Source of the DNA: a bacterium
GTDB lineage: Bacteria; Patescibacteriota; Minisyncoccia; Phycocordibacterales; UBA918
DNA: 64,000 bases
NCBI GenBank assembly: GCA_030430425.1
Contig: JAUIFS010000001.1
Coordinates: 5,992-69,991 of the forward strand
Reading direction: 5' to 3'
Every line of letters begins with the position of its first letter. Positions within the stretch are counted from its first letter, which is position 1. Shown here in pieces: positions 10,984-44,297 of this stretch. The position numbers and the translations under genes are program-made. Below the pieces are notes generated by a model that worked only from the letters and a program-made list of their open reading frames with translations, did no database searches and had not been told where the DNA came from.

Positions 10984-12165
10984 ATGGTCCTTTTTACATG
11001 CAACGGAAGCAACAATACCGTAACGGGCGCAACACGGCGGAGAGACCATAACCAAAAACGTATAAAACAGATTTCACAAGACCCTGATCCCTCAAGTAGT
11101 CAGCGCATGAGTGCGCGCGATGATCAGGATACATATATAAGTAGCACTTCGGCTCGGGCGACGATTTTTGCCTCAGAGCTCATTCCTTTACTTGCAGTGC
11201 TACTGATCCCCTTTTCTGTGCATGCAGGAGTTTTCTCTTCAATGGCGCAGTTTTTTATAGAATCAGAAACCACTGAAGTTGCACGTGCTGAAGTTGATTA
11301 TTCAGCCCGCTACACGCCACTGCTTACCGCAACCATACAAGCCGATCCACAAAAAGCGATTGGTGGTGGTGACCTTGCGGTGTCTGACGGCGCACTTGTT
11401 TCTACCGGTCCGGTTGGTGAAGATGAAATAGCAGCGTCAAGCGCAAGCGCTGGAGAAATCAGCGTGTATGTCGTACGTGAAGGTGATTCGCTATCACAGA
11501 TTGCTGAGATGTATAACGTCACTACTAATACTATTTTGTGGGCAAACGATATTTCACGTGCAAGTGACATTCAGCCGGGCGACACACTCGTTATCCTCCC
11601 TATTGTGGGAGTGCGTCATGTAGTTGCTTCTGGTGAGACCCTTGGTTCTCTCTTAAAGAAATACGATGCAGATCTTGACGAGGTGCTGGCGTACAACAAT
11701 CTTTCTGAAGACGCAGTGCTTGCTGTTGGTGATGAGTTGATGATTCCTGGTGGTGAACTACATACACCCCGTACTGTTGCAAAACGACCGGCACCAAGTA
11801 AGTCTCGTGGCGCTACTGGCGGCGGAGGTTTTTCTCATCCTGTGCCTGGTGCGGTGCGTACCCAGGGTATTCACGGATACAACGCGGTTGACCTTGCTGC
11901 AGGTCACGGAACTGCTATCCGTGCCGCAGCAGCAGGAGAAGTTATTGTGTCTAAGGCAAGTGGTTGGAATGGCGGATACGGACAGTATATTGTAGTGCGA
12001 CACAACAACGGTACACAGACACTCTATGCACACCTCAGTGCAAACAACGTTGGTGTTGGTGCATGGGTTGGATCAGGACAAGTTATTGGTGCAATGGGTA
12101 ACACGGGTAAGTCCACGGGAACGCACTTACACTTCGAAGTACGTGGAGGAAGCAACCCCTTTTAG
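10984..12165 (+). CDS. LysM-domain M23 family metallopeptidase with N-terminal membrane anchor
   Basis: Strong SD aagggagga 5 nt before the ATG. Two LysM repeats (GDSLSQIAEMYNV..., GETLGSLLKKYDADLDEVLAYNNL) then M23 motifs HGYNAVDLAA...HLHFEV. Confidence 0.85.
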   Translation: MVLFTCNGSNNTVTGATRRRDHNQKRIKQISQDPDPSSSQRMSARDDQDTYISSTSARATIFASELIPLLAVLLIPFSVHAGVFSSMAQFFIESETTEVARAEVDYSARYTPLLTATIQADPQKAIGGGDLAVSDGALVSTGPVGEDEIAASSASAGEISVYVVREGDSLSQIAEMYNVTTNTILWANDISRASDIQPGDTLVILPIVGVRHVVASGETLGSLLKKYDADLDEVLAYNNLSEDAVLAVGDELMIPGGELHTPRTVAKRPAPSKSRGATGGGGFSHPVPGAVRTQGIHGYNAVDLAAGHGTAIRAAAAGEVIVSKASGWNGGYGQYIVVRHNNGTQTLYAHLSANNVGVGAWVGSGQVIGAMGNTGKSTGTHLHFEVRGGSNPF

Positions 12166-12220
12166 AAAAGTTTGAAAAGTTGGCGGATATCTTTGTCTCG
12201 CTACATAAAATAAAAGTTCA

Positions 12221-12247
12221 CCGTACGTTACGTACGGCTCTTTTTAT
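12221..12247 (+). terminator. hairpin ccgtacg-tta-cgtacgg followed by ctcttttta
   Basis: Stem-loop plus T-run just downstream of the M23 peptidase gene. Confidence 0.45.
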
Positions 12248-12399
12248 TTCATTTATGCTCCTCGAGCTCCATTCAATTTTTCAACCTTTTGGATCTCTTC
12301 GATATATTCATACAAAAAGGCGCTCGCCCTACTTCGTAGGTCTCGCGCCTTTTTCGTTCCGTGTCTTGTGGCAGCCGCTAAATAGCGGGCGGTCGCGAG

Positions 12400-13323
12400 C
12401 TAACTTGAGTTTTTAACCAAATCTATTCTTTTATACATTAAATCTTTAAATTTTTTATTTTCTGTATTTACCCACTTCATAGCGGCCCACACCACATCAT
12501 TGGTTCTTATAATTTTTTCATTCGCTTTCATATCGAGTGTTAAGGATTCTTTACTGCATTTAAAATAATAAGCACATCGTTCGATCAAGAAACTGAGCTG
12601 ATCTGGGCTAAAATTTCCATGTATTTTTATATAAGAAAGCCCAAAGAAGTTAGAAATACACGCATGCTCAAAATCATAAAAATTAATTTTACCATCAGTG
12701 TCGATAATCAACTTCGACTGAATATCTCCCCAGGCAAAACCTAACCTTCTTTCAGCCTTGTTTACATTTTCTAGGTATTTCAAGTTTTCTTTCAGTGTAG
12801 TTTCTATCCATACAGTAATTTCTTCTGGGAGGGTACCCTTCTTTGCTTCTTCAAAACGATTAAACCCGTATAGCTTTATACTTTCAATTGGATCAACATA
12901 GTCGTAAAACCTTAAGCCATTACTTTTGCAGAAAGCAACAAAAGCAGAAACATCTAGAGTAAACAGCTTGTGTAGCTGGCGAGCAAATGAATCAATTTGA
13001 TCATTAGAGAGATCTCTTTGTGACACAAGCTCACCTTCTATAAAGTTTTCGATAAGATAATTTTTGTCATAATCATAAAATAGAGCTCTCGGACAAAAAT
13101 CTATACCCTCATTTTCAAAGTACCTGAGAAAAGAATTTTCTTTCTCCAAAGAATCTAAGAATTGAGGCTCGGTTGACTTCTTTAATCTCAACACAAATTT
13201 TTGTCCATTTTCTTCAAGTAAATAGTTTTCATTACCGAATCCTTCTGCTAAAAAAACCACATTGGGGCTACTCACTAACGATGATCTCTTTGCAAGTTCT
13301 GCCACTTCTTCATTTGTTTTCAT
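12400..13323 (-). CDS. phosphotransferase-fold (APH/choline-kinase-like) protein kinase-like enzyme, AT-rich gene
   Basis: GFGNENYLLEENGQKFVLRLK (nucleotide-binding loop plus Lys), AWGDIQSKLIIDTDGKINFYDFEHA (catalytic loop and DFE/DFG-like motif). Local GC is clearly lower than in neighbouring genes. Confidence 0.55.
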   Translation of the reverse strand: MKTNEEVAELAKRSSLVSSPNVVFLAEGFGNENYLLEENGQKFVLRLKKSTEPQFLDSLEKENSFLRYFENEGIDFCPRALFYDYDKNYLIENFIEGELVSQRDLSNDQIDSFARQLHKLFTLDVSAFVAFCKSNGLRFYDYVDPIESIKLYGFNRFEEAKKGTLPEEITVWIETTLKENLKYLENVNKAERRLGFAWGDIQSKLIIDTDGKINFYDFEHACISNFFGLSYIKIHGNFSPDQLSFLIERCAYYFKCSKESLTLDMKANEKIIRTNDVVWAAMKWVNTENKKFKDLMYKRIDLVKNSS

Positions 13324-13410
13324 TGTAATGATTGTAACAAACCAGCACGAAACATAATGTCTCGTGCTAGCTCTAAACTGCGCGTGGTCTTGGATTCAAA
13401 CTAGAATATT

Positions 13411-14928
13411 TTATACACGAACCCTATACTGTAATGCCTCATATACATGAGGTGGTTGTATATCGTTTGAGTTGTCTAAATCAGCTATCGTCCGAGCAAC
13501 TTTAATAACCCGATGGTAGCTCCGCGGAGAGAGGTTGAGTTTCTCGCTACTCGTGCGGAGGATGTGCTGTACTTCACCGCTGAGCGTGATAGTTTCCTCA
13601 ATGTCACGTGCTGAAAGTTCAGCGTTTGTATACGTGCCACGTTTTTCTCCTCGTGCACGCATCATGTTTCTTGCGCTTTTGATTTGTTCTCGTGCACGCG
13701 CAGTCTCTCCAGTATTTGTTGTGGTAGTAGTGAGCGTGTCGTAGTCAACATGCGGTACTTCAAGCCAGAGGTCAATACGGTCAAGAATTGGTCCAGAGAT
13801 TTTGCCTTTGTATGTTTCAAGCATGGCGCTCGCAAAGTCGGTAGTCCCATCCTCACTCCCCCGATAGGGATTCATTGCTGCAATGAGAATAAAGTCTGCA
13901 GGAAACAGCGCGGTCCCTTGTACGCGAGAGATAGACACGACGCGGTCTTCAAGCGGTTGCCGCAGTGCATCAATACTCCGTCGTTCAAACTCAGGGAATT
14001 CATCGACAAACAATACTCCCTTGTGCGCAAGTGTGACTTCCCCCGGGCGAGGGTGCGCGCCACCGCCGACCAATGAAGTGTGACTTGCGGTGTGGTGTGG
14101 TGCACGAAACGGAGGCTGCGCGGAGACATTATTTTCATATACCCCCGCAACGGAATGAATTGCGGTAACCTCGAGTGCTTCCTCTCGTGATAGTGGCGGA
14201 AGTATTCCCTGAAAGGCACGCGCGAGCATCGTCTTCCCTGTCCCCGGAGGACCAACCATGATGACATTGTGTCTGCCTGCCGCAGCAATAAGAAGACCTC
14301 GCTTTGCAGCCTCTTGTCCTTTAATGTCTTCCAGTCGTGTAAGTCCGTCATGCCACTGCTCTTCCATGTGTGTGAGCTCTTGAACTGGCAGACAGCAGTG
14401 TTTTTCTTCATCTTTAGTTATATGGTGTACAACGTCCATAAGCGTACGTGCTGGGTAGATGGTTATGCCTGCAACAAGTGCTGCCTCCTGTGCATTGTCT
14501 TTAGGAACAATAACTTCGCTATAGCCGTGTTCTTTTGCTGCTTGCACAATAGCAAGTACTCCCCGCACTCCGCGTAGGTGCCCATTGAGAGAAAGCTCTC
14601 CCACATACATGCGCGAAACGTCAGTGGTGGACACTTCCTCTGCTGCGATGAGGTACGCAATGGCAATAGGGAGGTCGAACAGAGGTCCTTCTTTTTTAAG
14701 GTCAGCAGGCGCAAGTGAAATAGTTATTTTATGGTTCTTACTTTTTGGAGATGGAAAACCACTATTTTTTATCGCCGCACTGACACGGTCTTTTGCTTCT
14801 TCAATTGCTTTTCCAGGAAGTCCCACAATGGAAAATGAATGCAGACCTCGGGTGAGGTCTGCTTCAATAGTTACCGGTACACCTCCGGTAACAGTTCCTT
14901 GTGCAGTGTGTGTGGTTGCGACTGCCAT
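13411..14928 (-). CDS. comM: YifB/ComM family Mg-chelatase-like AAA+ ATPase
   Basis: Lon-like N-terminal domain, Walker A VIMVGPPGTGKTMLARA, and the C-terminal ComM helix-hairpin region; 505 aa. Confidence 0.9.
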   Translation of the reverse strand: MAVATTHTAQGTVTGGVPVTIEADLTRGLHSFSIVGLPGKAIEEAKDRVSAAIKNSGFPSPKSKNHKITISLAPADLKKEGPLFDLPIAIAYLIAAEEVSTTDVSRMYVGELSLNGHLRGVRGVLAIVQAAKEHGYSEVIVPKDNAQEAALVAGITIYPARTLMDVVHHITKDEEKHCCLPVQELTHMEEQWHDGLTRLEDIKGQEAAKRGLLIAAAGRHNVIMVGPPGTGKTMLARAFQGILPPLSREEALEVTAIHSVAGVYENNVSAQPPFRAPHHTASHTSLVGGGAHPRPGEVTLAHKGVLFVDEFPEFERRSIDALRQPLEDRVVSISRVQGTALFPADFILIAAMNPYRGSEDGTTDFASAMLETYKGKISGPILDRIDLWLEVPHVDYDTLTTTTTNTGETARAREQIKSARNMMRARGEKRGTYTNAELSARDIEETITLSGEVQHILRTSSEKLNLSPRSYHRVIKVARTIADLDNSNDIQPPHVYEALQYRVRV

Positions 14929-15330: not shown

Positions 15331-17199
15331 TTACTGACCTATCAAAGGGAGTAGCTTTACAAATGTTTCTGAGTCAGGAGTAATCAGAATCATGTTTTGC
15401 TTTATAAAAGAATAGATGAGTCGCTCAGAGTTTGTTGCATCGACCAAGACGCGTGCGCTCTTGTTTGCAATGACCGTATCTCTAAAGAAGGCAGTGCGTA
15501 TTTGGGTGTCTGTTCGAGCGTATGGGTCATACGATTCTGATACGGGTGAACCAAACAATGGTGAGAGGTCGCTACTGAGCACGGGTTCCCACTGCAACAT
15601 ACCTGCAAAACTCGTGTCAAAATTAGTTGTTTGTATAAGTATGAATGGTTTTGTGCCATCAATACTGCCGAACATTATTTCTGAAATATCACGTGTGAAT
15701 GATCCTGGTGTACGCAACGCCAGTGAGTTGAGGATTGTTTGCGCATCAGCAGGAATGGTTTTTCCAGACGTATCTTGCATTGTTGGGTATATTTGTATGG
15801 TTTCACGACTTGTCAGAGACGCGTTAAGTATTGACTGGAATGTGGCATCTTTACTGGTGTGTAACGTCACCGGAATTTGCTGTGTGGTTTGTAGTAATGA
15901 AGGAATACGGATTGGTGCCGCTTGTTCAGCTGGCGTGGAACCCATAAACATGTAGACACTTGTTCCGATACCAAGTAAAGAGGCACCAACAATAACAAGC
16001 CCATAGATATATATCGGTACTCGAGATGGTCTTGTAGCTGTTTGTGTTTCGGCAGAAGGTTGTAGGCGAGGAGTTTTTGTCTCAATTGGTTTCTTTTGCA
16101 GCACTGGTGTTGCTACAGGATCTGCTTTAGGTACAGCTGAAACCGGTGGCGTGTTGGACACTGCTGTTTTTGCTGCAGGAGGCTGCGTAACGTTGCGTTG
16201 GACCGTAGAGGGTGTTTCCGCAACCGGTGTCGGTGTTTTGGTTTCTTCCTTTTCTTGCGCACGATCAAATACCGGCTTTGGCGGTGGACCTTGTGCAACA
16301 ACACGTTCTTGCAACAGTGTATCAATAGGGTCTGCGACCTGTTCTTCAGGAACTGCTGCAGGAGCATTTTCTTGTTCAGGCATTTTTAAGGTGCGTACAT
16401 CAACTGGAGTTTCGTCGGTGGTATGTGTCCAGGTGGGAGCAGGTACGTCTTCTTTTTTCTTGATACCAACACTTGTTTTGGGAGCTTCTCGTTTTTTTGT
16501 GGTGAGTCGTTTTACCGTAATGCCGTGATCATTTTGTGGCACGTGATAACTGGCGCGTGCTGCTGCTGCAATAGTTGCAATACGCGTTTCTGCTTTACTG
16601 ACCATGTGTTCAGGTTCTTTTTGTTTGGTGAGTATTTCTTTTTTTGTGCCAAACCAATTTTGAAGCGATGCTCCAATTGCAGGCAATAGCCGAAACTTCT
16701 TTCTTTTTTTGTTTTGGATGATGGTTCCCTCTACTGCATCGTCATGGAGAGAAATATTTTGTGGTGCCTGGTTCAGCGTTGTGGCATCTGAAAAATTCCC
16801 CTCAATCTGTGCAACTTCATTTGCTAATGTTGTAGTATCAACAACAAGTTTTTTGGGTTTTGGTGCAGATGCAACAACTTCTGCCGCAAGCTTTTCTTTA
16901 CTCAAAATCTCCTCTGCTTTTGAAACAATAGGCGCAGCTTCTTTTGGAACAGGCATCGTTGCGTCACTTGCAGCAAGAAACTCTGAGGACTTTTTTACTT
17001 TCTCTCTTTTTCGATCAAGTGCTGCTTGCGGGAGCTTTGTTTCTTTAGGAGTGGCAAGAATAGCGTCGGTGCGTTGTTGTACCGATTTTTCTTCTTGTTT
17101 GAGTACGGGACGATTAGGCACTTCTTCACCACGTGCGCGTAGAGCGTCAGTGGTATAGGTGCGTATACGTGCAATGGAATGATCATTCCCTGTTGTCAT
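15331..17199 (-). CDS. hypothetical bitopic membrane protein (622 aa) with long Pro/Ala/Thr/Lys-rich cytoplasmic region and about 200-aa extracytoplasmic C-terminal domain
   Basis: Single TM segment (PIYIYGLVIVGASLLGIGTSVYMF). The N-terminus is low complexity; no family recognized. Confidence 0.55.
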   Translation of the reverse strand: MTTGNDHSIARIRTYTTDALRARGEEVPNRPVLKQEEKSVQQRTDAILATPKETKLPQAALDRKREKVKKSSEFLAASDATMPVPKEAAPIVSKAEEILSKEKLAAEVVASAPKPKKLVVDTTTLANEVAQIEGNFSDATTLNQAPQNISLHDDAVEGTIIQNKKRKKFRLLPAIGASLQNWFGTKKEILTKQKEPEHMVSKAETRIATIAAAARASYHVPQNDHGITVKRLTTKKREAPKTSVGIKKKEDVPAPTWTHTTDETPVDVRTLKMPEQENAPAAVPEEQVADPIDTLLQERVVAQGPPPKPVFDRAQEKEETKTPTPVAETPSTVQRNVTQPPAAKTAVSNTPPVSAVPKADPVATPVLQKKPIETKTPRLQPSAETQTATRPSRVPIYIYGLVIVGASLLGIGTSVYMFMGSTPAEQAAPIRIPSLLQTTQQIPVTLHTSKDATFQSILNASLTSRETIQIYPTMQDTSGKTIPADAQTILNSLALRTPGSFTRDISEIMFGSIDGTKPFILIQTTNFDTSFAGMLQWEPVLSSDLSPLFGSPVSESYDPYARTDTQIRTAFFRDTVIANKSARVLVDATNSERLIYSFIKQNMILITPDSETFVKLLPLIGQ

Positions 17200-22193: not shown

Positions 22194-23540
22194 TTACTCG
22201 GTTTTTTCTTCAGATTCTATAATTTCTGAATCATCTTCAGGGTCGCCAAAGTATTTTTCACTGATCCTGGCTAATTTGTCATATATTTTTACACGAATAT
22301 GTTCTGGTAGTTGGGTGATCAAATCTTGGAACGCTTCGTAGAAAGCGCTATTTTTTGAGAAAGACTTTACTGAAAGCTGGGTTTGTAATTCTTTAACAAG
22401 CAGTCTTCTTTTTTTAAGTTCAATGTTGGGCATATGTTCGGATAGGATATCTACAAATGAATTAGGAAGATATGTACCGTTTTGTACATATTCTTTGAAT
22501 ACACTGTTAAGAATTACCTCTTCAGGGATATCGGCTATGGCGCTGATAAAAGCAATGTATTGTTCTGCAACACACATTTCGTTTGTATAGCCAACTTTTG
22601 TCTCGTGTAAGATACTGTCCAGATACGTGTTTTCAAAGTGATTGCGTGGGCACTGTGTGAGGTACGTTCGTGCCATACGTAGCGAGATCAGCTGTGTTAT
22701 TGCCTCGTTGATTCCCCTTCCTTTTTCTGTGATGTATCTCTCGGTTATTAACACTTGGTCTGACTCTCGAAGGACAAGTGACTGTTCCTCTCTTTCAACT
22801 TGCAGACCGAGAGCCCGGTAGTGAGAGTGGTCTGGCATGCTCGTATTTCCTGTGTCAGTTATTGCGTGGAGCTCTTCATGAATAAGAGAATGTACCGTTT
22901 TGATCCAGCCTAATATATCATCAAAATGTGCCCTTATTTCTTCTTCGTTCTCGTCTAAATAAGTTTGATCCGTAGCCATTGCTCGCACCTCAGTTGTGGT
23001 AACTGGAGGTTTCTTCTCTCCATGAATATGTTGGGCTATCATTTCACGTATCAGACCATGAGATTTTTCTTTAGATTTGGAATGATTCCATTTTATAAAG
23101 ACACGAGTGTGGTTAATATAATTCTGCAATGCAACCAAGTGTTGATCATTATAGAGTATTTGTGCGTTAGTAGATGCCGATTTAGAAAGTTTATATGCAT
23201 TAAGTGTAATAAACTTATTTAAGTTGTAGGTTGCATTAGATGTGTCGGTGTCCTTACCTTTTTCGATTATAATTTTTGCTTTTGGGATAAAGCGATTCAT
23301 GCATGAAATGACTCCCGTTGTTCCAAGGCTCTTACGTAGTTCTTGAAGAAATATATTGCGGACTGCAGTTTCATTTATATCATCTAAGTATCCGGCGATT
23401 TGTTTCATTTCAGGAGTGTCTTCAATTTCTTCAATGGATACATCTAGATCATCAAAAGCAGATTCAGCTTCAGGCGAGTAATTGCCGATAGGTTTTTGAG
23501 GGAAACGTTCACCTTCCATAATGTATTGATTATACCGCAC
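22194..23540 (-). CDS. hypothetical protein (448 aa) with HExxH zinc-metallopeptidase-like motif; AT-rich
   Basis: SLIHEELHAITD is the only recognizable motif. Composition is lower in GC than the flanks; convergent with the recombinase. Confidence 0.6.
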   Translation of the reverse strand: MRYNQYIMEGERFPQKPIGNYSPEAESAFDDLDVSIEEIEDTPEMKQIAGYLDDINETAVRNIFLQELRKSLGTTGVISCMNRFIPKAKIIIEKGKDTDTSNATYNLNKFITLNAYKLSKSASTNAQILYNDQHLVALQNYINHTRVFIKWNHSKSKEKSHGLIREMIAQHIHGEKKPPVTTTEVRAMATDQTYLDENEEEIRAHFDDILGWIKTVHSLIHEELHAITDTGNTSMPDHSHYRALGLQVEREEQSLVLRESDQVLITERYITEKGRGINEAITQLISLRMARTYLTQCPRNHFENTYLDSILHETKVGYTNEMCVAEQYIAFISAIADIPEEVILNSVFKEYVQNGTYLPNSFVDILSEHMPNIELKKRRLLVKELQTQLSVKSFSKNSAFYEAFQDLITQLPEHIRVKIYDKLARISEKYFGDPEDDSEIIESEEKTE

Positions 23541-33773: not shown

Positions 33774-34199
33774 CTATTTCTTGTCCACTGAGTACCGACC
33801 GGCTCCAAGTCCTGCAATGGCTAGTGCACCAGCGAGGAACATTAATTGTAATTCGATTGCAGATCCGCCACCTCGTGCTGAAATAGTGAAAATTTCACCT
33901 ATATGTGCCAGTACAATAACAAAAACCATGGTGATTGTTACTAATTTTGCCGCTAAGCGTGTTTTATATCCAACGATAAGCATAATAGGCGCTACAACCT
34001 CACCAATATACACAAGGTATGCAAGCATTGCTGGTAAATGGTAGTTCTGGAAAAGACCTCCAATAAAATCAAGTGTTCCAGGATTAGAAATTTTATATAT
34101 TCCGTGGAGTAAGACTAGTAAACCAACAGCAAGACGTAAAATTAATTTTGCAGTGTCCGCAGACATGCAAGGTTCATTACATTTTTGTACTAAGTTCAT
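33774..34199 (-). CDS. DoxX-family membrane protein
   Basis: 141 aa; 4 TM helices; LRLAVGLLVLLHGIYKI DoxX-like N-terminus. Confidence 0.6.
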   Translation of the reverse strand: MNLVQKCNEPCMSADTAKLILRLAVGLLVLLHGIYKISNPGTLDFIGGLFQNYHLPAMLAYLVYIGEVVAPIMLIVGYKTRLAAKLVTITMVFVIVLAHIGEIFTISARGGGSAIELQLMFLAGALAIAGLGAGRYSVDKK

Positions 34200-34314
34200 A
34201 GCATGTATGTATTAAAATGATAGTACTGTATATAGTAGCATGCGGACTATGACTACGTTACACATGAAACATTATTTTCTTTGAAAAACAGCATTTCATG
34301 TGTAACATACAAGT

Positions 34315-34980
34315 ATGACTACTCTTCTGACAGCAGTTTTGCTTTATATTTTAGTGTTTGGGGCTGATTATCTGTTCTACGTGAAACAGGAAAAGTCATA
34401 TAAATACATTTCAGTGCAGACGTATATACTGTTTGTGATCGGGCAACTTGCCGCAATTTTTCTTTTTTATAATGAAATCACTTCATTTTTTGTCCATTGG
34501 CAATCAGAAGTCGTTTTCCTACTCATTTTTACAGCCTTTTTGCTACTTTTTACCTACGTGCTTATGCGTGACCGCTTGTATGTATGTAGTATGAGCTCAC
34601 GCTCATTACGATGTCTAACTCCTTGGTATGTATTGGTGAAAGGTGCTGAAATAGTGTTTCAGCAGCTTATTTACTTGATGGTTGCACTCACCCTCGCTTC
34701 CCTGCTTGGAGTCCATTTCTACACATACGTGGCATATATATTGATCCTACTTATCATGCACATCGTAGTGATACTTGGTGGTGGTCAAAGTGTTGTAAAA
34801 AGCCTTACATTTGGGCTATTTGCAATATCAGCTCCTATATTTTACGTATACACGGAAATGGGAGTATTTTGGCCCGCCGTGTACTTACATGGCGTCATGT
34901 ATGTGTTTTATTGGCTCACGATCGCTGACTTTGACGGTTCCTCGCTCAATTCTGCAGTAAAAGTGGAAAACCGTGGATAA
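34315..34980 (+). CDS. hypothetical polytopic membrane protein (221 aa)
   Basis: At least 6 hydrophobic helices; no family recognized. Confidence 0.5.
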   Translation: MTTLLTAVLLYILVFGADYLFYVKQEKSYKYISVQTYILFVIGQLAAIFLFYNEITSFFVHWQSEVVFLLIFTAFLLLFTYVLMRDRLYVCSMSSRSLRCLTPWYVLVKGAEIVFQQLIYLMVALTLASLLGVHFYTYVAYILILLIMHIVVILGGGQSVVKSLTFGLFAISAPIFYVYTEMGVFWPAVYLHGVMYVFYWLTIADFDGSSLNSAVKVENRG

Positions 34981-35143
34981 GTGAGTGGATAGGTGGATAA
35001 AGGACAGTACTTTATATATAAGAAATTTTAATTATATAGCTATAAATAAGGGTTTAATAACTAAAATCAATTATTTTGTACTTTACAACGTTTCACGTGA
35101 AACATATAAAAGATGTTACACATGGAACATTTAATACGTAAAT

Positions 35144-35548
35144 ATGAAGAAGAATGCTTATACAACAAAAGAAACAGGTAATTTAGGTGAAAGACTTGCC
35201 TGTGAGTATCTTGGGACGCAAGGATATATCATTATGGAGCGCAACTATTGGAAAAAATATGGTGAAATAGATATTATTGCTAAAAAAGATGGAATTATTC
35301 ACTTTATAGAGGTGAAAACTGTTTCATATGAAACAAAACAAGCTCTTGAGTATGCTGTTTCCCATGAAACATGGCGTCCAGAAGAACAGGTGACAGACAG
35401 GAAGCTTCACCAGATAGAAAAAGCACTAGAGACTTGGATTTCTGAGCGCCAGTATGAAGGGGAGTGGCAAATAGATGTAGCTGCAGTACGCATTGTACCA
35501 CGTGAAATATATGCAGCAGTCAACTATATTGCGAATATCATTCAATAA
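35144..35548 (+). CDS. yraN: YraN-family (UPF0102) predicted endonuclease
   Basis: GERLACEYLGTQGYIIMERNYWKKYGEIDIIAKKDGIIHFIEVK matches the YraN/Holliday-junction-resolvase-like core. Confidence 0.8.
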   Translation: MKKNAYTTKETGNLGERLACEYLGTQGYIIMERNYWKKYGEIDIIAKKDGIIHFIEVKTVSYETKQALEYAVSHETWRPEEQVTDRKLHQIEKALETWISERQYEGEWQIDVAAVRIVPREIYAAVNYIANIIQ

Positions 35549-40185: not shown

Positions 40186-40749
40186 TTATTCTGGGGGTGG
40201 TTTCAAATGGTAGTCTTTAGCATAAATACTAATACCCAAACCTAGTCCGATCCAAAGAGATACGTTCTTTATCATTTCCTTGTCTTTTTGCTTACATGTA
40301 CAAAGACCATTTGTATGGAACCTCATGCAAATGAGTTTCTCTGCATCGCGTAGCTGTTTTAGTGCGGTAAGGATCCGTTTGCACATGTTGTGACTGAGTA
40401 CCTCTGTGTGTTTACAAGTGCACTGTGTAAATGTTTTACAGCATCGTGCACAACAGTTGCTTTGCAGGTGGACTTCTATCAAGTCCCGATTGCTTTTAAG
40501 AAAAAATAAATCCCCACCAAGAAATCCTGTTTCTTCCCAGAGTGTATGTATTAGTTGACACGTCGCGTCGTTGGTTGGAAGTACTGAGTAGAAAGCTTCC
40601 ATTTCAATTACAAGACATGATTGTTCTTTAGACAGCGTACCGCTCAAACGGTGCTTGTGCATGTTTCCGGTGCTTTCTTTGCGTCGCCGTTCTTCCTCTA
40701 TTCTTTCCTGCATCAATGCACTAATACCGAACATTCTATCGATATCCAT
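40186..40749 (-). CDS. Cys-rich hypothetical protein (187 aa) with C-terminal TM segment
   Basis: Cys cluster CCARCCKTFTQCTCKH...C...LCTC; C-terminal LWIGLGLGISIYA; no family recognized. Confidence 0.5.
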   Translation of the reverse strand: MDIDRMFGISALMQERIEEERRRKESTGNMHKHRLSGTLSKEQSCLVIEMEAFYSVLPTNDATCQLIHTLWEETGFLGGDLFFLKSNRDLIEVHLQSNCCARCCKTFTQCTCKHTEVLSHNMCKRILTALKQLRDAEKLICMRFHTNGLCTCKQKDKEMIKNVSLWIGLGLGISIYAKDYHLKPPPE

Positions 40750-40866
40750 TATTTTGTCCTCCCCTTGTATAACGTACTGATCTACTTTGCACTGTAATAC
40801 GCTCTTTGCAAAAATTCAAGAAAAGTAGGGAATAGTAATAATTTAGTTTTTTGTCAAAAAACTTTG

Positions 40867-40894
40867 TTGCAGATGTGTATTCCTTGTGTACAAT
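40867..40894 (+). promoter_or_regulatory. sigma70-like promoter TTGCAG-16-TACAAT
   Basis: Good -35/-10 spacing, about 95 nt upstream of the terminator at 40988. Confidence 0.35.
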
Positions 40895-40987
40895 GCATAT
40901 ATGCATCATGCACAAACATTTTATTTCTGGTTTTACGTTCCGCGAGTTGCTCGTGTAGTTGTTTGTGTGTAGGTACGACTTATGTAG

Positions 40988-41021
40988 AAAACGACCGCGA
41001 GCATATGCTCGCGGTCGTTTT
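40988..41021 (+). terminator. palindrome aaaacgaccgcgagcatatgctcgcggtcgtttt plus cttttgtg
   Basis: Perfect 15-bp stem in the middle of a divergent intergenic region. Confidence 0.7.
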
Positions 41022-41111
41022 CTTTTGTGATTCGATATATTTCTCCAAACTGTGGTGGCATATATCGGCTCACAATACGGTGAGTCGAAAACAAAAAAGG
41101 AGTTCTGTATC

Positions 41112-41402
41112 ATGACACACGCAACGTTTGTTCCTGAGGATAATCAGACGCCGCTACCGGCATTGCAACACAATGGACGGAACATTACACTTGATACGTT
41201 CAAAAAAGAATTGTTATCTACAGGAGTCTGTGCTGTGTATGTAGGACAAGGGAATCATATACACGCATTTCGGGACTTACTCGATGAACCGGAGCTGTAT
41301 ACGCTCTACATGCATCATCGAAAACGCATGTTCCATGTAGATGCGCTTGCGCAAGCACGTATGGAGCATACAGCAGCTGCAGAGCATCCATTTGCGCTGT
41401 GA
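41112..41402 (+). CDS. hypothetical protein (about 96 aa)
   Basis: SD aaaaaaggag upstream of ATG 41112; followed by a terminator. Confidence 0.45.
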   Translation: MTHATFVPEDNQTPLPALQHNGRNITLDTFKKELLSTGVCAVYVGQGNHIHAFRDLLDEPELYTLYMHHRKRMFHVDALAQARMEHTAAAEHPFAL

Positions 41403-43702: not shown

Positions 43703-44297
43703 GTGGTGTAAGTATAGCAAACAGATGTGCTACAAGTTTGTGCTGTACCAGAATCCTTTTTGATCAAAATGAAAGACCTGGTCACTAAATGCAACCAGGT
43801 CTACACAAGTCCCCTTATCTTTATAAGGTAGTTAGTACCGTAATCTAACTAGGTAGCCCCATAGGAAATCATTGAGCCACAGCCTCATCGCCGGCTATTC
43901 AATGCATATCGCAGACGAGCACGTCCGTCGTCAACTTGTGTTCAGACAAAATATAACAAAGCAAAGTGTTTATGACAACACAAACATCACCGAGTTTTAT
44001 ATTTAATGAGTTGAAGCAGAGGAGTTTCTGTCTACGGTGGTGGTACACCCTTTAGTACCCCGCCTACTACACAAGTAGCATTTCCCGAGCATACCTCCTG
44101 GCGCAGGTTACTAAAGCACTTTGTGCTGTAAGTACTTGCCCTCCTTACAGGAGCTGTACACCTTGTCCGTATTTCTGTTCGTAAACTCCAGAAATCTTGG
44201 AAAAGGTCTTGCGAAGCTCCAAGTATTCGCTTCTCACCCAGCGCACTCGTTTTCTTTTTAGGAATAAAAGAAAACATCGTTTACGCTTCACAAAACT

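What the first reader, a model, noticed from the sequence alone, without database searches (positions are those of the whole stretch)
12170..13410. AT-rich island carrying a phosphotransferase-fold kinase-like gene
The 12400..13323 gene is visibly lower in GC than all neighbours (long A/T runs throughout). It encodes an APH/choline-kinase-fold protein with glycine-loop, catalytic-loop (AWGDIQSKLIID, Trp in place of the usual His) and DFE motifs. It sits between the M23 peptidase terminator and comM. Compositional atypicality suggests lateral acquisition. Family members include antibiotic (aminoglycoside/macrolide) kinases, choline or ethanolamine kinases and small-molecule kinases. The H-to-W substitution in the catalytic loop is unusual.
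Basis: partly seen in the sequence, partly recalled or inferred. Interest (0 to 1): 0.5.

Follow-up and report, generated by a model that had tools for sequence, protein, structure and literature searches.

The report
Laterally acquired orphan small-molecule kinase gene
An AT-rich, single-gene insert in a variable slot between two conserved housekeeping genes of an ultrasmall (Patescibacteria-type) bacterium encodes an uncharacterised kinase of the antibiotic-kinase/choline-kinase fold with a rewired catalytic loop. It is a real but fairly ordinary accessory gene whose substrate is unknown.

Summary

Lateral acquisition is supported independently of composition. Relatives keep the order PNPase-hyp-DksA-ComM-[slot]-M23 peptidase-UvrD-KsgA. 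The comM/M23 slot ranges from 6 to about 3,500 nt and carries different cargo (PAP2, MazF toxin-antitoxin, GST, GFA, unknowns). None of 83 surveyed loci has this kinase there. Homologues sit in unrelated contexts in Paceibacterota, Kaiserbacteria and Saccharimonadia, and in contigs labelled DPANN archaea.

The family is small (60 clusters at E<=1e-30 among 1.84 billion representatives). Its nearest named relatives are LicA choline kinase, thiamine kinase and GntI, all far below family cut-offs. The catalytic Asp and the DFE Asp are kept. The loop reads WGDIQS, one residue short; the metal-binding Asn is lost and Gln202 appears in an either/or pattern with it. Arg replaces the beta3 Lys. Choline-pocket residues are not conserved.

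Best reading: an active, accessory small-molecule kinase of unknown substrate. Interest is modest.

The parts
12400..13323 (-). CDS of a 307-aa APH/choline-kinase-fold kinase. Key residues: G-loop E27-Y34, R46/K49, catalytic loop W198-G-D200-I-Q202-S, D217-F-E219, Y231-I-K233-I-H235, N275-D276..W279..W284.
13324..13410 (-). 87-nt spacer between the comM stop and the kinase start. It holds a weak hairpin (about 13344..13368). A sigma-70-like promoter match (13435->13408) overlaps the end of comM.
   Evidence: Sequence and promoter scan. DNA homology to the kinase locus L015 extends about 50 nt upstream of the start codon, window 13324..13373. Homology to comM loci of relatives stops at about 13405..13421.
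12297..12369 (.). Conserved 73-nt element holding an A-tract / 19-nt-arm hairpin / T-tract (12314..12354). It is a bidirectional intrinsic terminator at the M23-proximal border of the cargo.
   Evidence: Inverted repeat I1. 82-85% identical copies lie next to the M23 gene in L034, L026 and L033, with a 42-nt match in L043. The consensus fold has compensatory pair changes.
12166..12272 (.). Second spacer module next to the M23 stop, with a bidirectional terminator-like hairpin at 12221..12237.
   Evidence: Terminator scan. It is homologous to the M23-proximal spacer of other relatives: L037 at 76% over 121 nt and L036 at 70% over 172 nt.
10984..12165 (+). Conserved flank: LysM + M23 peptidase gene, convergent with the kinase.
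   Evidence: Pfam. Syntenic in 54 of 83 loci of relatives.
13411..14928 (-). Conserved flank: comM / YifB Mg-chelatase-like AAA ATPase gene, upstream of the kinase on the same strand.
   Evidence: Pfam. More than 100 clusters are 70-83% identical.

Best explanation
The gene is a horizontally acquired, single-gene accessory cassette of roughly 12370..13373. It sits in a hypervariable slot between the convergent housekeeping genes comM and the M23 peptidase gene of a marine or aquatic Paceibacterota-type (Patescibacteria) genome.

The product is most likely a catalytically active, ATP-dependent small-molecule O-phosphotransferase. It belongs to the branch of the APH superfamily that holds LicA choline kinase, thiamine kinase and GntI.

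Inferred mechanism:
- The glycine loop (G28-N33), Arg46 (at the beta3 Lys position, as in eukaryotic choline kinases) and Lys49 hold the ATP phosphates.
- Asp217 of the DFE motif binds Mg2+.
- Asp200 acts as the catalytic base on a substrate hydroxyl.
- Gln202 takes over the role of the lost loop Asn.

The substrate is unknown. It is probably not choline and probably not an aminoglycoside. The company kept by the slot in relatives (GST, GFA, PAP2, toxin-antitoxin) fits a dispensable niche, detoxification or salvage function.

Shown: the fold, family membership, conservation pattern, the variable slot and the absence of the kinase from relatives. Inferred: catalytic activity, residue roles and type of substrate.
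For: Fold and family.

Intact typical member.

Conserved catalytic residues: D200 in 47/47, D217 in 45/47, G28 in 47/47, K49 in 44/47.

Gln202/Asn204 pattern: all 8 sequences without Q202 have N204, against 2 of 39 with Q202 (Fisher p = 1.4e-7, but only about 3 independent clades). Wider relatives carry HGD(L/I)GxN.

Nearest named relatives: GntI matches 59 of 75 wider-family members and ThiK 52 of 75. Pfam Choline_kinase matches 18 of 75. The family profile matches LicA 4r77 at E = 1.5e-13 over its full length.

Transfer:
- The slot survey found 0 of 83 loci with the kinase, slot lengths of 6-3,498 nt and diverse cargo.
- No gene neighbour is shared across 17 kinase loci.
- The kinase gene is the only long DNA-level match between L015 and the window: 72% over 968 nt, against 54% amino-acid identity for a shared T2SS ATPase.
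- GC3 of the window subclade stays at 0.30-0.33 in hosts whose GC3 is 0.385, 0.455 and 0.556.
Against: Activity is not shown. The canonical Brenner motif HxDxxxxN is not met: His is Trp, the loop is one residue shorter and the Asn is lost. The beta3 Lys is Arg, so a pseudokinase or a different chemistry is not excluded.

No operon partner, no characterised homologue above 16% identity and no ligand information constrain the substrate.

No mobile-element signature (integrase, flanking repeats, nearby tRNA) explains how the cassette entered. No phage, plasmid or viral carrier was found.

About half of the GC deficit is family-intrinsic amino-acid composition.

I could not inspect model coordinates, so residue roles rest on sequence alignment to LicA.
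Confidence: 0.7

Rival explanations
1. It is an antibiotic-resistance kinase (aminoglycoside, macrolide or another antibiotic) that detoxifies a compound met in the host-associated niche.
Confidence: 0.15
2. It is a bacterial choline/ethanolamine kinase (LicA-like) or a thiamine kinase that salvages a cationic alcohol from the host.
For: LicA is the best PDB match for the family profile (E = 1.5e-13, full length). The ThiK and GntI models are the commonest NCBIfam matches. Arg at the beta3 position resembles human choline kinase, where Arg146 contacts the alpha-phosphate (PMC4364537; the positional equivalence is from my own knowledge). Organisms with reduced genomes depend on salvage.
Against: All scores are far below family cut-offs: GntI 58 against 357 bits, ThiK 27 against 299 bits. 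There is no PF01633 match for the window protein. Choline-pocket and catalytic residues of LicA are not conserved: T29->G30, V178->Q202, N181->variable, Y197->H220, E213->H235, W254->M282. No licB/licC/licD or thiamine genes lie nearby in any locus. The patchy accessory distribution argues against a core salvage role.
Confidence: 0.12
3. It is a pseudokinase or a non-phosphotransferase (a scaffold, or another ATP-dependent chemistry) that has kept the fold.
For: Three canonical features are altered together: His->Trp, loss of the loop Asn with a one-residue deletion, and beta3 Lys->Arg.
Against: The catalytic Asp is invariant. The DFE Asp, the G-loop Gly/Asn and Lys49 are nearly invariant. Gln202 and Asn204 are mutually exclusive, as expected if one functional group must be retained. 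Arg at beta3 is compatible with activity in choline kinases.
Confidence: 0.08
4. The low GC is only a by-product of the protein's amino-acid composition, and the gene is a vertically inherited resident.
For: GC at codon positions 1+2 is below the host in all 15 other loci. In most loci GC3 equals the host's. Amino-acid composition alone explains 0.061 of the 0.108 deficit.
Against: In the window, GC3 and synonymous codon choice are also shifted (z -1.7; z -2.6). None of 83 relatives has the gene at this site, and sites empty to 6-94 nt exist in relatives with 76-79% identical ComM. The closest homologue lies at a different locus in another genome.
Confidence: 0.05

Closest known systems
LicA, the choline kinase of Streptococcus pneumoniae (PDB 4R77/4R7B; Pfam PF01633 Choline_kinase)
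   Different: 14-15% identity. The catalytic loop is one residue shorter, and H->W and N181->variable. The P-loop Thr29 needed for choline kinase activity is Gly. The choline-cage residues Y197, W254 and E213 are His, Met and His. There is no lic operon context. PF01633 is not matched by the window protein.
APH(2'') aminoglycoside phosphotransferases (e.g. PDB 3TDV, 4DBX, 4ORK)
   Different: 13-14% identity. No match of the window protein to any NCBIfam APH model. Different catalytic-loop motif. The C-lobe is not acidic.
GntI (guanitoxin pathway kinase, NCBIfam NF041256) and thiamine kinase ThiK (TIGR02721)
   Same: These are the only NCBIfam models that the window protein matches: 58 bits over residues 22-285, and 27 bits over residues 25-123. 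They are also the commonest matches across the wider family, 59 and 52 of 75 members.
   Different: Scores are 6- to 11-fold below the equivalog cut-offs (357 and 299 bits). No guanitoxin or thiamine genes are nearby.

Membership tests
Pfam PF01636 APH (phosphotransferase enzyme family; protein-kinase-like fold) | Whole-protein score above the Pfam gathering threshold | tested here: met
   35.1 bits against 23.2, E = 1.5e-8, residues 23-224. 65 of 75 wider-family members also match.
Pfam PF01636 APH (phosphotransferase enzyme family; protein-kinase-like fold) | Bilobal kinase fold with an N-lobe beta-sheet and a helical C-lobe | tested here: met
Pfam PF01636 APH (phosphotransferase enzyme family; protein-kinase-like fold) | Brenner phosphotransferase motif HxDxxxxN in the catalytic loop | tested here: not met
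   The loop reads W198-G-D200-I-Q-S-K-L. His is Trp in 46 of 47 sequences. The loop is one residue shorter than in LicA, and the position aligned with the Asn is variable (K/N/E/S/R/D). The catalytic Asp is kept in 47 of 47.
Pfam PF01636 APH (phosphotransferase enzyme family; protein-kinase-like fold) | Metal-binding Asp of the DFG/DxE motif | tested here: met
   D217-F-E219; Asp in 45 of 47 sequences.
Pfam PF01636 APH (phosphotransferase enzyme family; protein-kinase-like fold) | Phosphotransferase activity | not testable with these tools
   Needs an enzyme assay.
Choline/ethanolamine kinase (PF01633; LicA type) | Match to the family model | tested here: not met
   No PF01633 match at E <= 10 for the window protein. 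Only 18 of 75 wider-family members match.
Choline/ethanolamine kinase (PF01633; LicA type) | Choline kinase motif ending in Glu, and the aromatic cage (LicA Y197, W251, W254, Y268, E213) plus P-loop Thr29 | tested here: not met
   By alignment: Y197->H220, W251->W279 (kept), W254->M282, E213->H235, T29->G30. The residue equivalent to Y268 could not be aligned.
Choline/ethanolamine kinase (PF01633; LicA type) | lic-type genomic context (choline transporter, cytidylyltransferase, phosphocholine transferase) | tested here: not met
   No neighbour is shared among the kinase loci, and no such genes appear in the Pfam-annotated ones. An EamA transporter lies 4 kb away in L006 only.
Thiamine kinase ThiK (TIGR02721) / GntI (NF041256) equivalogs | Score above the curated equivalog cut-off | tested here: not met
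   27.4 against 299.45 bits, and 58.2 against 357 bits.
Clinically defined aminoglycoside or macrolide phosphotransferases (NCBIfam AMR models) | Match to an APH/Mph model | tested here: not met
   No match for the window protein at E <= 10.
Anti-phage defence system component (PADLOC) | Match to a defence-system protein model | tested here: not met
   0 families at E <= 1.

The most novel reading that the evidence does not exclude
The window protein belongs to a compact, uncharacterised clade of APH-fold kinases confined to ultrasmall episymbiotic lineages. These are Paceibacterota, Kaiserbacteria and Saccharimonadia, plus contigs labelled Nanoarchaeota, Nanohaloarchaea or 'archaeon'. The clade appears to move laterally among them, possibly across the bacterial/archaeal boundary. 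It has a rebuilt catalytic centre: Trp for His, a shortened loop, Gln202 replacing the metal/phosphate-binding Asn, and Arg for the beta3 Lys. It would then phosphorylate a substrate class not covered by any characterised family member, perhaps a host-derived metabolite or a toxin relevant to the episymbiotic lifestyle.
Probability: 0.2. Interest if true: 0.5.

Novelty: new variant of a known kind. Interest (0 to 1): 0.3.

Why it matters
Patescibacteria and DPANN archaea have tiny genomes, so each retained accessory gene is informative about how they live on their hosts. This case gives a cleanly delimited example of a gene-exchange hot spot (the comM/M23 slot), with empty sites in relatives. 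It also gives a small kinase clade whose active site shows a traceable substitution path (HGDxGxN -> WGDxGxN -> WGDxQSx). That path could be tested as an example of how kinases re-house a catalytic amide. Beyond that it is an orphan enzyme. Without a substrate it does not open a long-standing question.

Tried and rejected
- PDB sequence search with the single protein found nothing meaningful. Only family profiles reached LicA.
- The AFDB Foldseek library was unavailable.
- The exact-sequence contig look-up of the window protein found no record.
- PADLOC and PHROGs gave no real match.
- IMG/VR viral contigs, PLSDB plasmids and GenBank phages held no homologue, so no vector was identified.
- Repeats flanking the gene: no direct or inverted repeat brackets the cassette, only short chance-level pairs. 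There is no tRNA within 14 kb. Rfam finds only four tRNAs in the window.
- All-against-all comparison of neighbours in 17 loci found no conserved partner. Synteny exists only among near-identical Saccharimonadia or Nanohaloarchaea loci, next to housekeeping genes such as ArgRS, CTP synthase and MscL.
- I tried to show that the relative carrying ComM P0199 and the contig carrying kinase P0006 are the same genome. The look-up did not return that contig.
- Literature searches for 'Patescibacteria' with 'aminoglycoside phosphotransferase', and 'Candidate Phyla Radiation' with 'choline kinase', found nothing on this family.
- A similarity between the invariant Y152-G-F-N-R156 and LicA's C-terminal Y268-G-V-N-R was seen in one alignment. 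It is statistically insignificant (0.3 bits) and was not used.

Full report
**1. What is in the sequence**

The region 12166..13410 is the spacer between two convergent or tandem conserved genes. One is a LysM + M23 peptidase gene (10984..12165, +). The other is a comM/YifB Mg-chelatase-like AAA ATPase gene (13411..14928, -).

The spacer holds one long ORF, 12400..13323 on the minus strand, starting with ATG and encoding 307 aa.

Its GC content is 0.333 against 0.440 for the 64-kb window. It is the lowest of 52 non-overlapping ORFs of at least 120 aa (mean 0.441, sd 0.033). No other 924-nt stretch of the window is as low (minimum elsewhere 0.358; z = -3.9).

I split the deficit into two parts:
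- With the window's own codon usage, this amino-acid sequence would have GC 0.383 (z = -2.9 among the ORFs).
- Synonymous codon choice removes a further 0.049 (z = -2.6).

So both the Lys/Asn/Phe/Ile/Tyr/Glu-rich composition and codon choice contribute.

**2. The protein**

Family and fold:
- Pfam assigns it to APH (PF01636) at 35.1 bits, above the gathering score of 23.2. No CotH or Choline_kinase match appears at E <= 10.
- NCBIfam gives only two weak matches: GntI at 58 bits (cut-off 357) and thiamine kinase at 27 bits (cut-off 299).
- An AlphaFold2 model built on 47 homologues is confident (pLDDT 94.1, pTM 0.89).
- Foldseek against the whole PDB agrees.

The fold therefore places the protein among small-molecule kinases but does not discriminate between subfamilies.

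Family size:
- A word-indexed search of 5.8 billion proteins found only 47 homologues. A source names one 'phosphotransferase [Candidatus Kaiserbacteria bacterium]', another carries a 'Patescibacteria group bacterium' tag, and most are unnamed.
- A full HMM search of 1.84 billion cluster representatives found 60 clusters at E <= 1e-30, 151 at E <= 1e-10 and 990 at E <= 1e-3.

**3. Active site**

In the 47-sequence alignment, G28, P78, Y152, G153, R156, W172, D200 and K233 are invariant. K49, W198, G199, D217, F218, E219, H235, N275, D276, W279, W284 and R299 are nearly so. The window protein keeps 78 of the 79 columns that are at least 85% conserved. It is an intact, typical member.

The catalytic loop is W-G-D-I-Q-S-x-(V/L)-I-I.

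More distant relatives from the representative search carry H-G-D-(L/I)-G-x-N-(I/L)-R. Aligned with LicA (C-H-I-D-L-V-P-E-N-F), the whole family has a one-residue deletion between the Asp and the Asn. A path can be read across the family:
- HGDxGxN in the wider family.
- WGDIGxN in a divergent subclade of close homologues (P0044-P0047, 33-36% identical to the window protein).
- WGDIQSx in the window's clade, where the Asn position is variable (10 K, 10 N, 8 E, 8 S, 4 R, 3 D among the commonest residues).

The eight sequences that lack Gln202 all have Asn204. Only 2 of the 39 with Gln202 do (Fisher p = 1.4e-7; about three independent clades, so the p-value overstates the evidence).

The beta3 Lys position covaries. 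It is Lys in six of those eight sequences and Arg46 in the Gln202 clade, which also has a near-invariant Lys49.

The LicA paper (PMC4364537) states that in human choline kinase Arg146, Asn311 and Asp330 contact the alpha-phosphate. That Arg146 sits at the beta3 position is my own knowledge.

I infer that the enzyme is active and that Gln202 replaces the Asn functionally. This is inference, not demonstration. It affects a residue that, to my knowledge, is structural rather than catalytic.

**4. Substrate clues**

The family profile matches LicA over its full length (E = 1.5e-13) and then a Mesorhizobium choline/ethanolamine-kinase-family protein.

I used the LicA structure paper and that alignment to map residues:

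| LicA residue | Role in LicA | Residue here |
|---|---|---|
| Asp176 | catalytic Asp | Asp200 |
| Asp194 / Glu196 | metal motif | Asp217 / Glu219 |
| Asn32 | G-loop, alpha-phosphate | Asn33 |
| Thr29 | T29A keeps about 10% activity | Gly30 |
| Val178 | choline pocket | Gln202 |
| Tyr197 | choline cage | His220 |
| Trp251 | choline cage | Trp279 (kept) |
| Trp254 | choline cage | Met282 |
| Glu213 | pairs with the quaternary amine | His235 |

An invariant Lys233 lies two residues before His235.

The protein has pI 5.3, and its C-terminal lobe has net charge +1. To my knowledge this is unlike the acidic aminoglycoside-binding lobes of APHs.

I conclude that the protein is neither a bona fide choline kinase nor a typical aminoglycoside kinase. 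The conserved basic and polar residues hint at a neutral or anionic acceptor, with low confidence.

Gene neighbourhood gives no help. Neighbours differ in every independent locus, and an all-against-all comparison of neighbours in 17 loci finds no shared partner.

PADLOC gives no match and PHROGs no meaningful match.

**5. Lateral acquisition**

ComM of the window has more than 100 clusters at 70-83% identity. Three relatives (80-82%) show the same gene order: PNPase, a large unannotated protein, DksA/TraR, ComM, [slot], M23/LysM peptidase (convergent), UvrD, KsgA. Their slot contents differ:
- a PAP2 phosphatase plus tiny ORFs;
- a PemK toxin-antitoxin pair plus small ORFs;
- a 203-aa unknown protein.

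DNA homology to the window stops at the comM stop (about 13405-13421) and at the M23 stop (12164).

I then surveyed 83 loci carrying ComM relatives of 44-83% identity:
- The convergent M23 gene was found downstream in 54.
- The slot is 6 to 3,498 nt long.
- Among close relatives (ComM >= 74%) the slot lengths are 6, 94, 309, 335, 450, 668, 731, 751, 761, 893, 1263, 1363, 1418, 1872 and 3392 nt.
- None of the 83 loci contains a homologue of the kinase.

Cargo identified in other relatives includes a GST, a second MazF/PemK module, a GFA-family protein, another PAP2, a DUF6886 protein and, further away, a ClpB-like ATPase.

The four slots compared first are AT-rich relative to their loci. Some other relatives' slots are not (up to 0.498 GC).

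The slot borders are recognisable:
- A 73-nt element (12297..12369) contains an A-tract / hairpin / T-tract bidirectional terminator (12314..12354). It is 82-85% identical in L034, L026 and L033, and partly present in L043. In those loci it directly abuts the M23 gene, and it shows compensatory pair changes.
- In the window it is separated from the M23 gene by a second module (12166..12272, hairpin 12221..12237). That module is homologous to the M23-proximal spacer of other relatives, L037 and L036.

The kinase cassette proper is thus about 12370..13373.

Elsewhere the closest homologue with long context (P0006, 68% identical) sits between a GNAT acetyltransferase plus methyltransferase and a GGDEF gene in a marine contig. 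Between that 21-kb locus and the 64-kb window, the kinase gene plus about 50 nt upstream is the only long nucleotide match (72% over 968 nt). A shared T2SS-type ATPase is only about 54% identical in protein.

Across 15 other loci the family's GC at codon positions 1+2 is always below the host's, which is a family property. GC3 is host-like in most loci. In the window's subclade it is not: 0.30, 0.32 and 0.33 in hosts with mean GC3 of 0.385, 0.455 and 0.556. This fits recent, separate acquisitions from a low-GC donor pool.

No integrase, flanking repeat or nearby tRNA marks the insertion. No phage, plasmid or viral contig carries a homologue. The route of entry is therefore unknown. Recombination after DNA uptake is a guess.

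**6. Distribution**

In one-genome-per-species contigs, homologues occur in MAGs labelled as follows:
- Paceibacterota, Kaiserbacteria and Saccharimonadia;
- Nanoarchaeota (50% identity);
- an unclassified 'archaeon' (47%, on a 390-kb contig);
- Nanohaloarchaea (28-29%).

Two labels (Gammaproteobacteria, Aquimarina) are probably binning errors.

The 'archaeon' copy lies inside a glycolytic cluster: PGK, kinase, methyltransferase, PfkB, DeoC-type aldolase, a short TIM and EamA. I did not verify the archaeal assignment with marker genes, so transfer between domains is suggested, not shown.

**7. Verdict**

The gene is a laterally acquired single-gene cassette in a hypervariable slot. It encodes an orphan APH/ChoK-fold kinase.

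It is a member of PF01636 by score and fold. It fails the classical Brenner motif and the choline-kinase, ThiK/GntI and resistance-APH membership tests. I therefore file it as a new variant of a known kind.

The most interesting aspects are the traceable Asn-to-Gln relocation in the catalytic loop and the restriction of the clade to ultrasmall episymbionts. The substrate remains unknown. Overall interest is modest.

Noticed in passing
window 12297..12369 (hairpin 12314..12354); L034:3413-3485, L026:8185-8255, L033:7695-7767, L043:7175-7216: A 73-nt A-tract/hairpin/T-tract element is 82-85% identical across relatives. That is more conserved than the adjacent coding DNA (about 70-76%), and it shows compensatory stem changes. 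It looks like a shared bidirectional terminator that also marks the M23-side border of the variable slot.
   Followed up: partly
window 12166..12272 versus L037 and L036: The window carries two terminator modules in tandem between the M23 gene and the kinase. Relatives have one or the other next to the M23 gene. The spacer is therefore a mosaic, which suggests repeated recombination at this site.
   Followed up: partly
window 15331..17199 (-): A 622-aa ORF without any Pfam match sits between PNPase and DksA. Its position is conserved in relatives, but the length there varies from 592 to 1,039 aa.
   Followed up: no
window 22194..23540 (-); 33774..35548; 40186..41113 (-): Other below-average-GC stretches exist. 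One is a 448-aa ORF with no Pfam match (GC 0.383). The 34-36 kb region (GC 0.37-0.38) holds DoxX, an unknown 221-aa ORF and a UPF0102/NERD protein next to tRNA-Pro. Two overlapping ORFs without Pfam matches lie at 40.2-41.1 kb. These may be further accessory segments.
   Followed up: partly
window 44144..44214 versus L015:3351-3419: A 71-nt stretch is 83% identical between the window and an otherwise dissimilar marine contig. It lies about 120 nt from tRNA-Gly(tcc). Its nature was not determined, and Rfam gives no match.
   Followed up: no
L006:9992-10894 and flanks: In a 390-kb contig labelled 'archaeon', the kinase homologue is embedded in a glycolysis and starch-degradation cluster: GH15, GAPDH, amylase, PGK, kinase, methyltransferase, PfkB, DeoC aldolase, TIM and an EamA transporter.
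   Followed up: partly
L003 (CAZIJG010000001.1) and L004 (WTKB01000236.1): Contigs carrying homologues are labelled 'Gammaproteobacteria' and 'Aquimarina sp.' but have 31-33% GC and a gene content unlike those taxa. They are probably mis-binned MAG contigs.
   Followed up: no
L015-L018, upstream of the kinase homologue P0006: In the closest long-context homologue, a GNAT acetyltransferase and a class I SAM methyltransferase directly precede the kinase on the same strand. A methyltransferase also flanks the L006 copy. This may be chance.
   Followed up: partly
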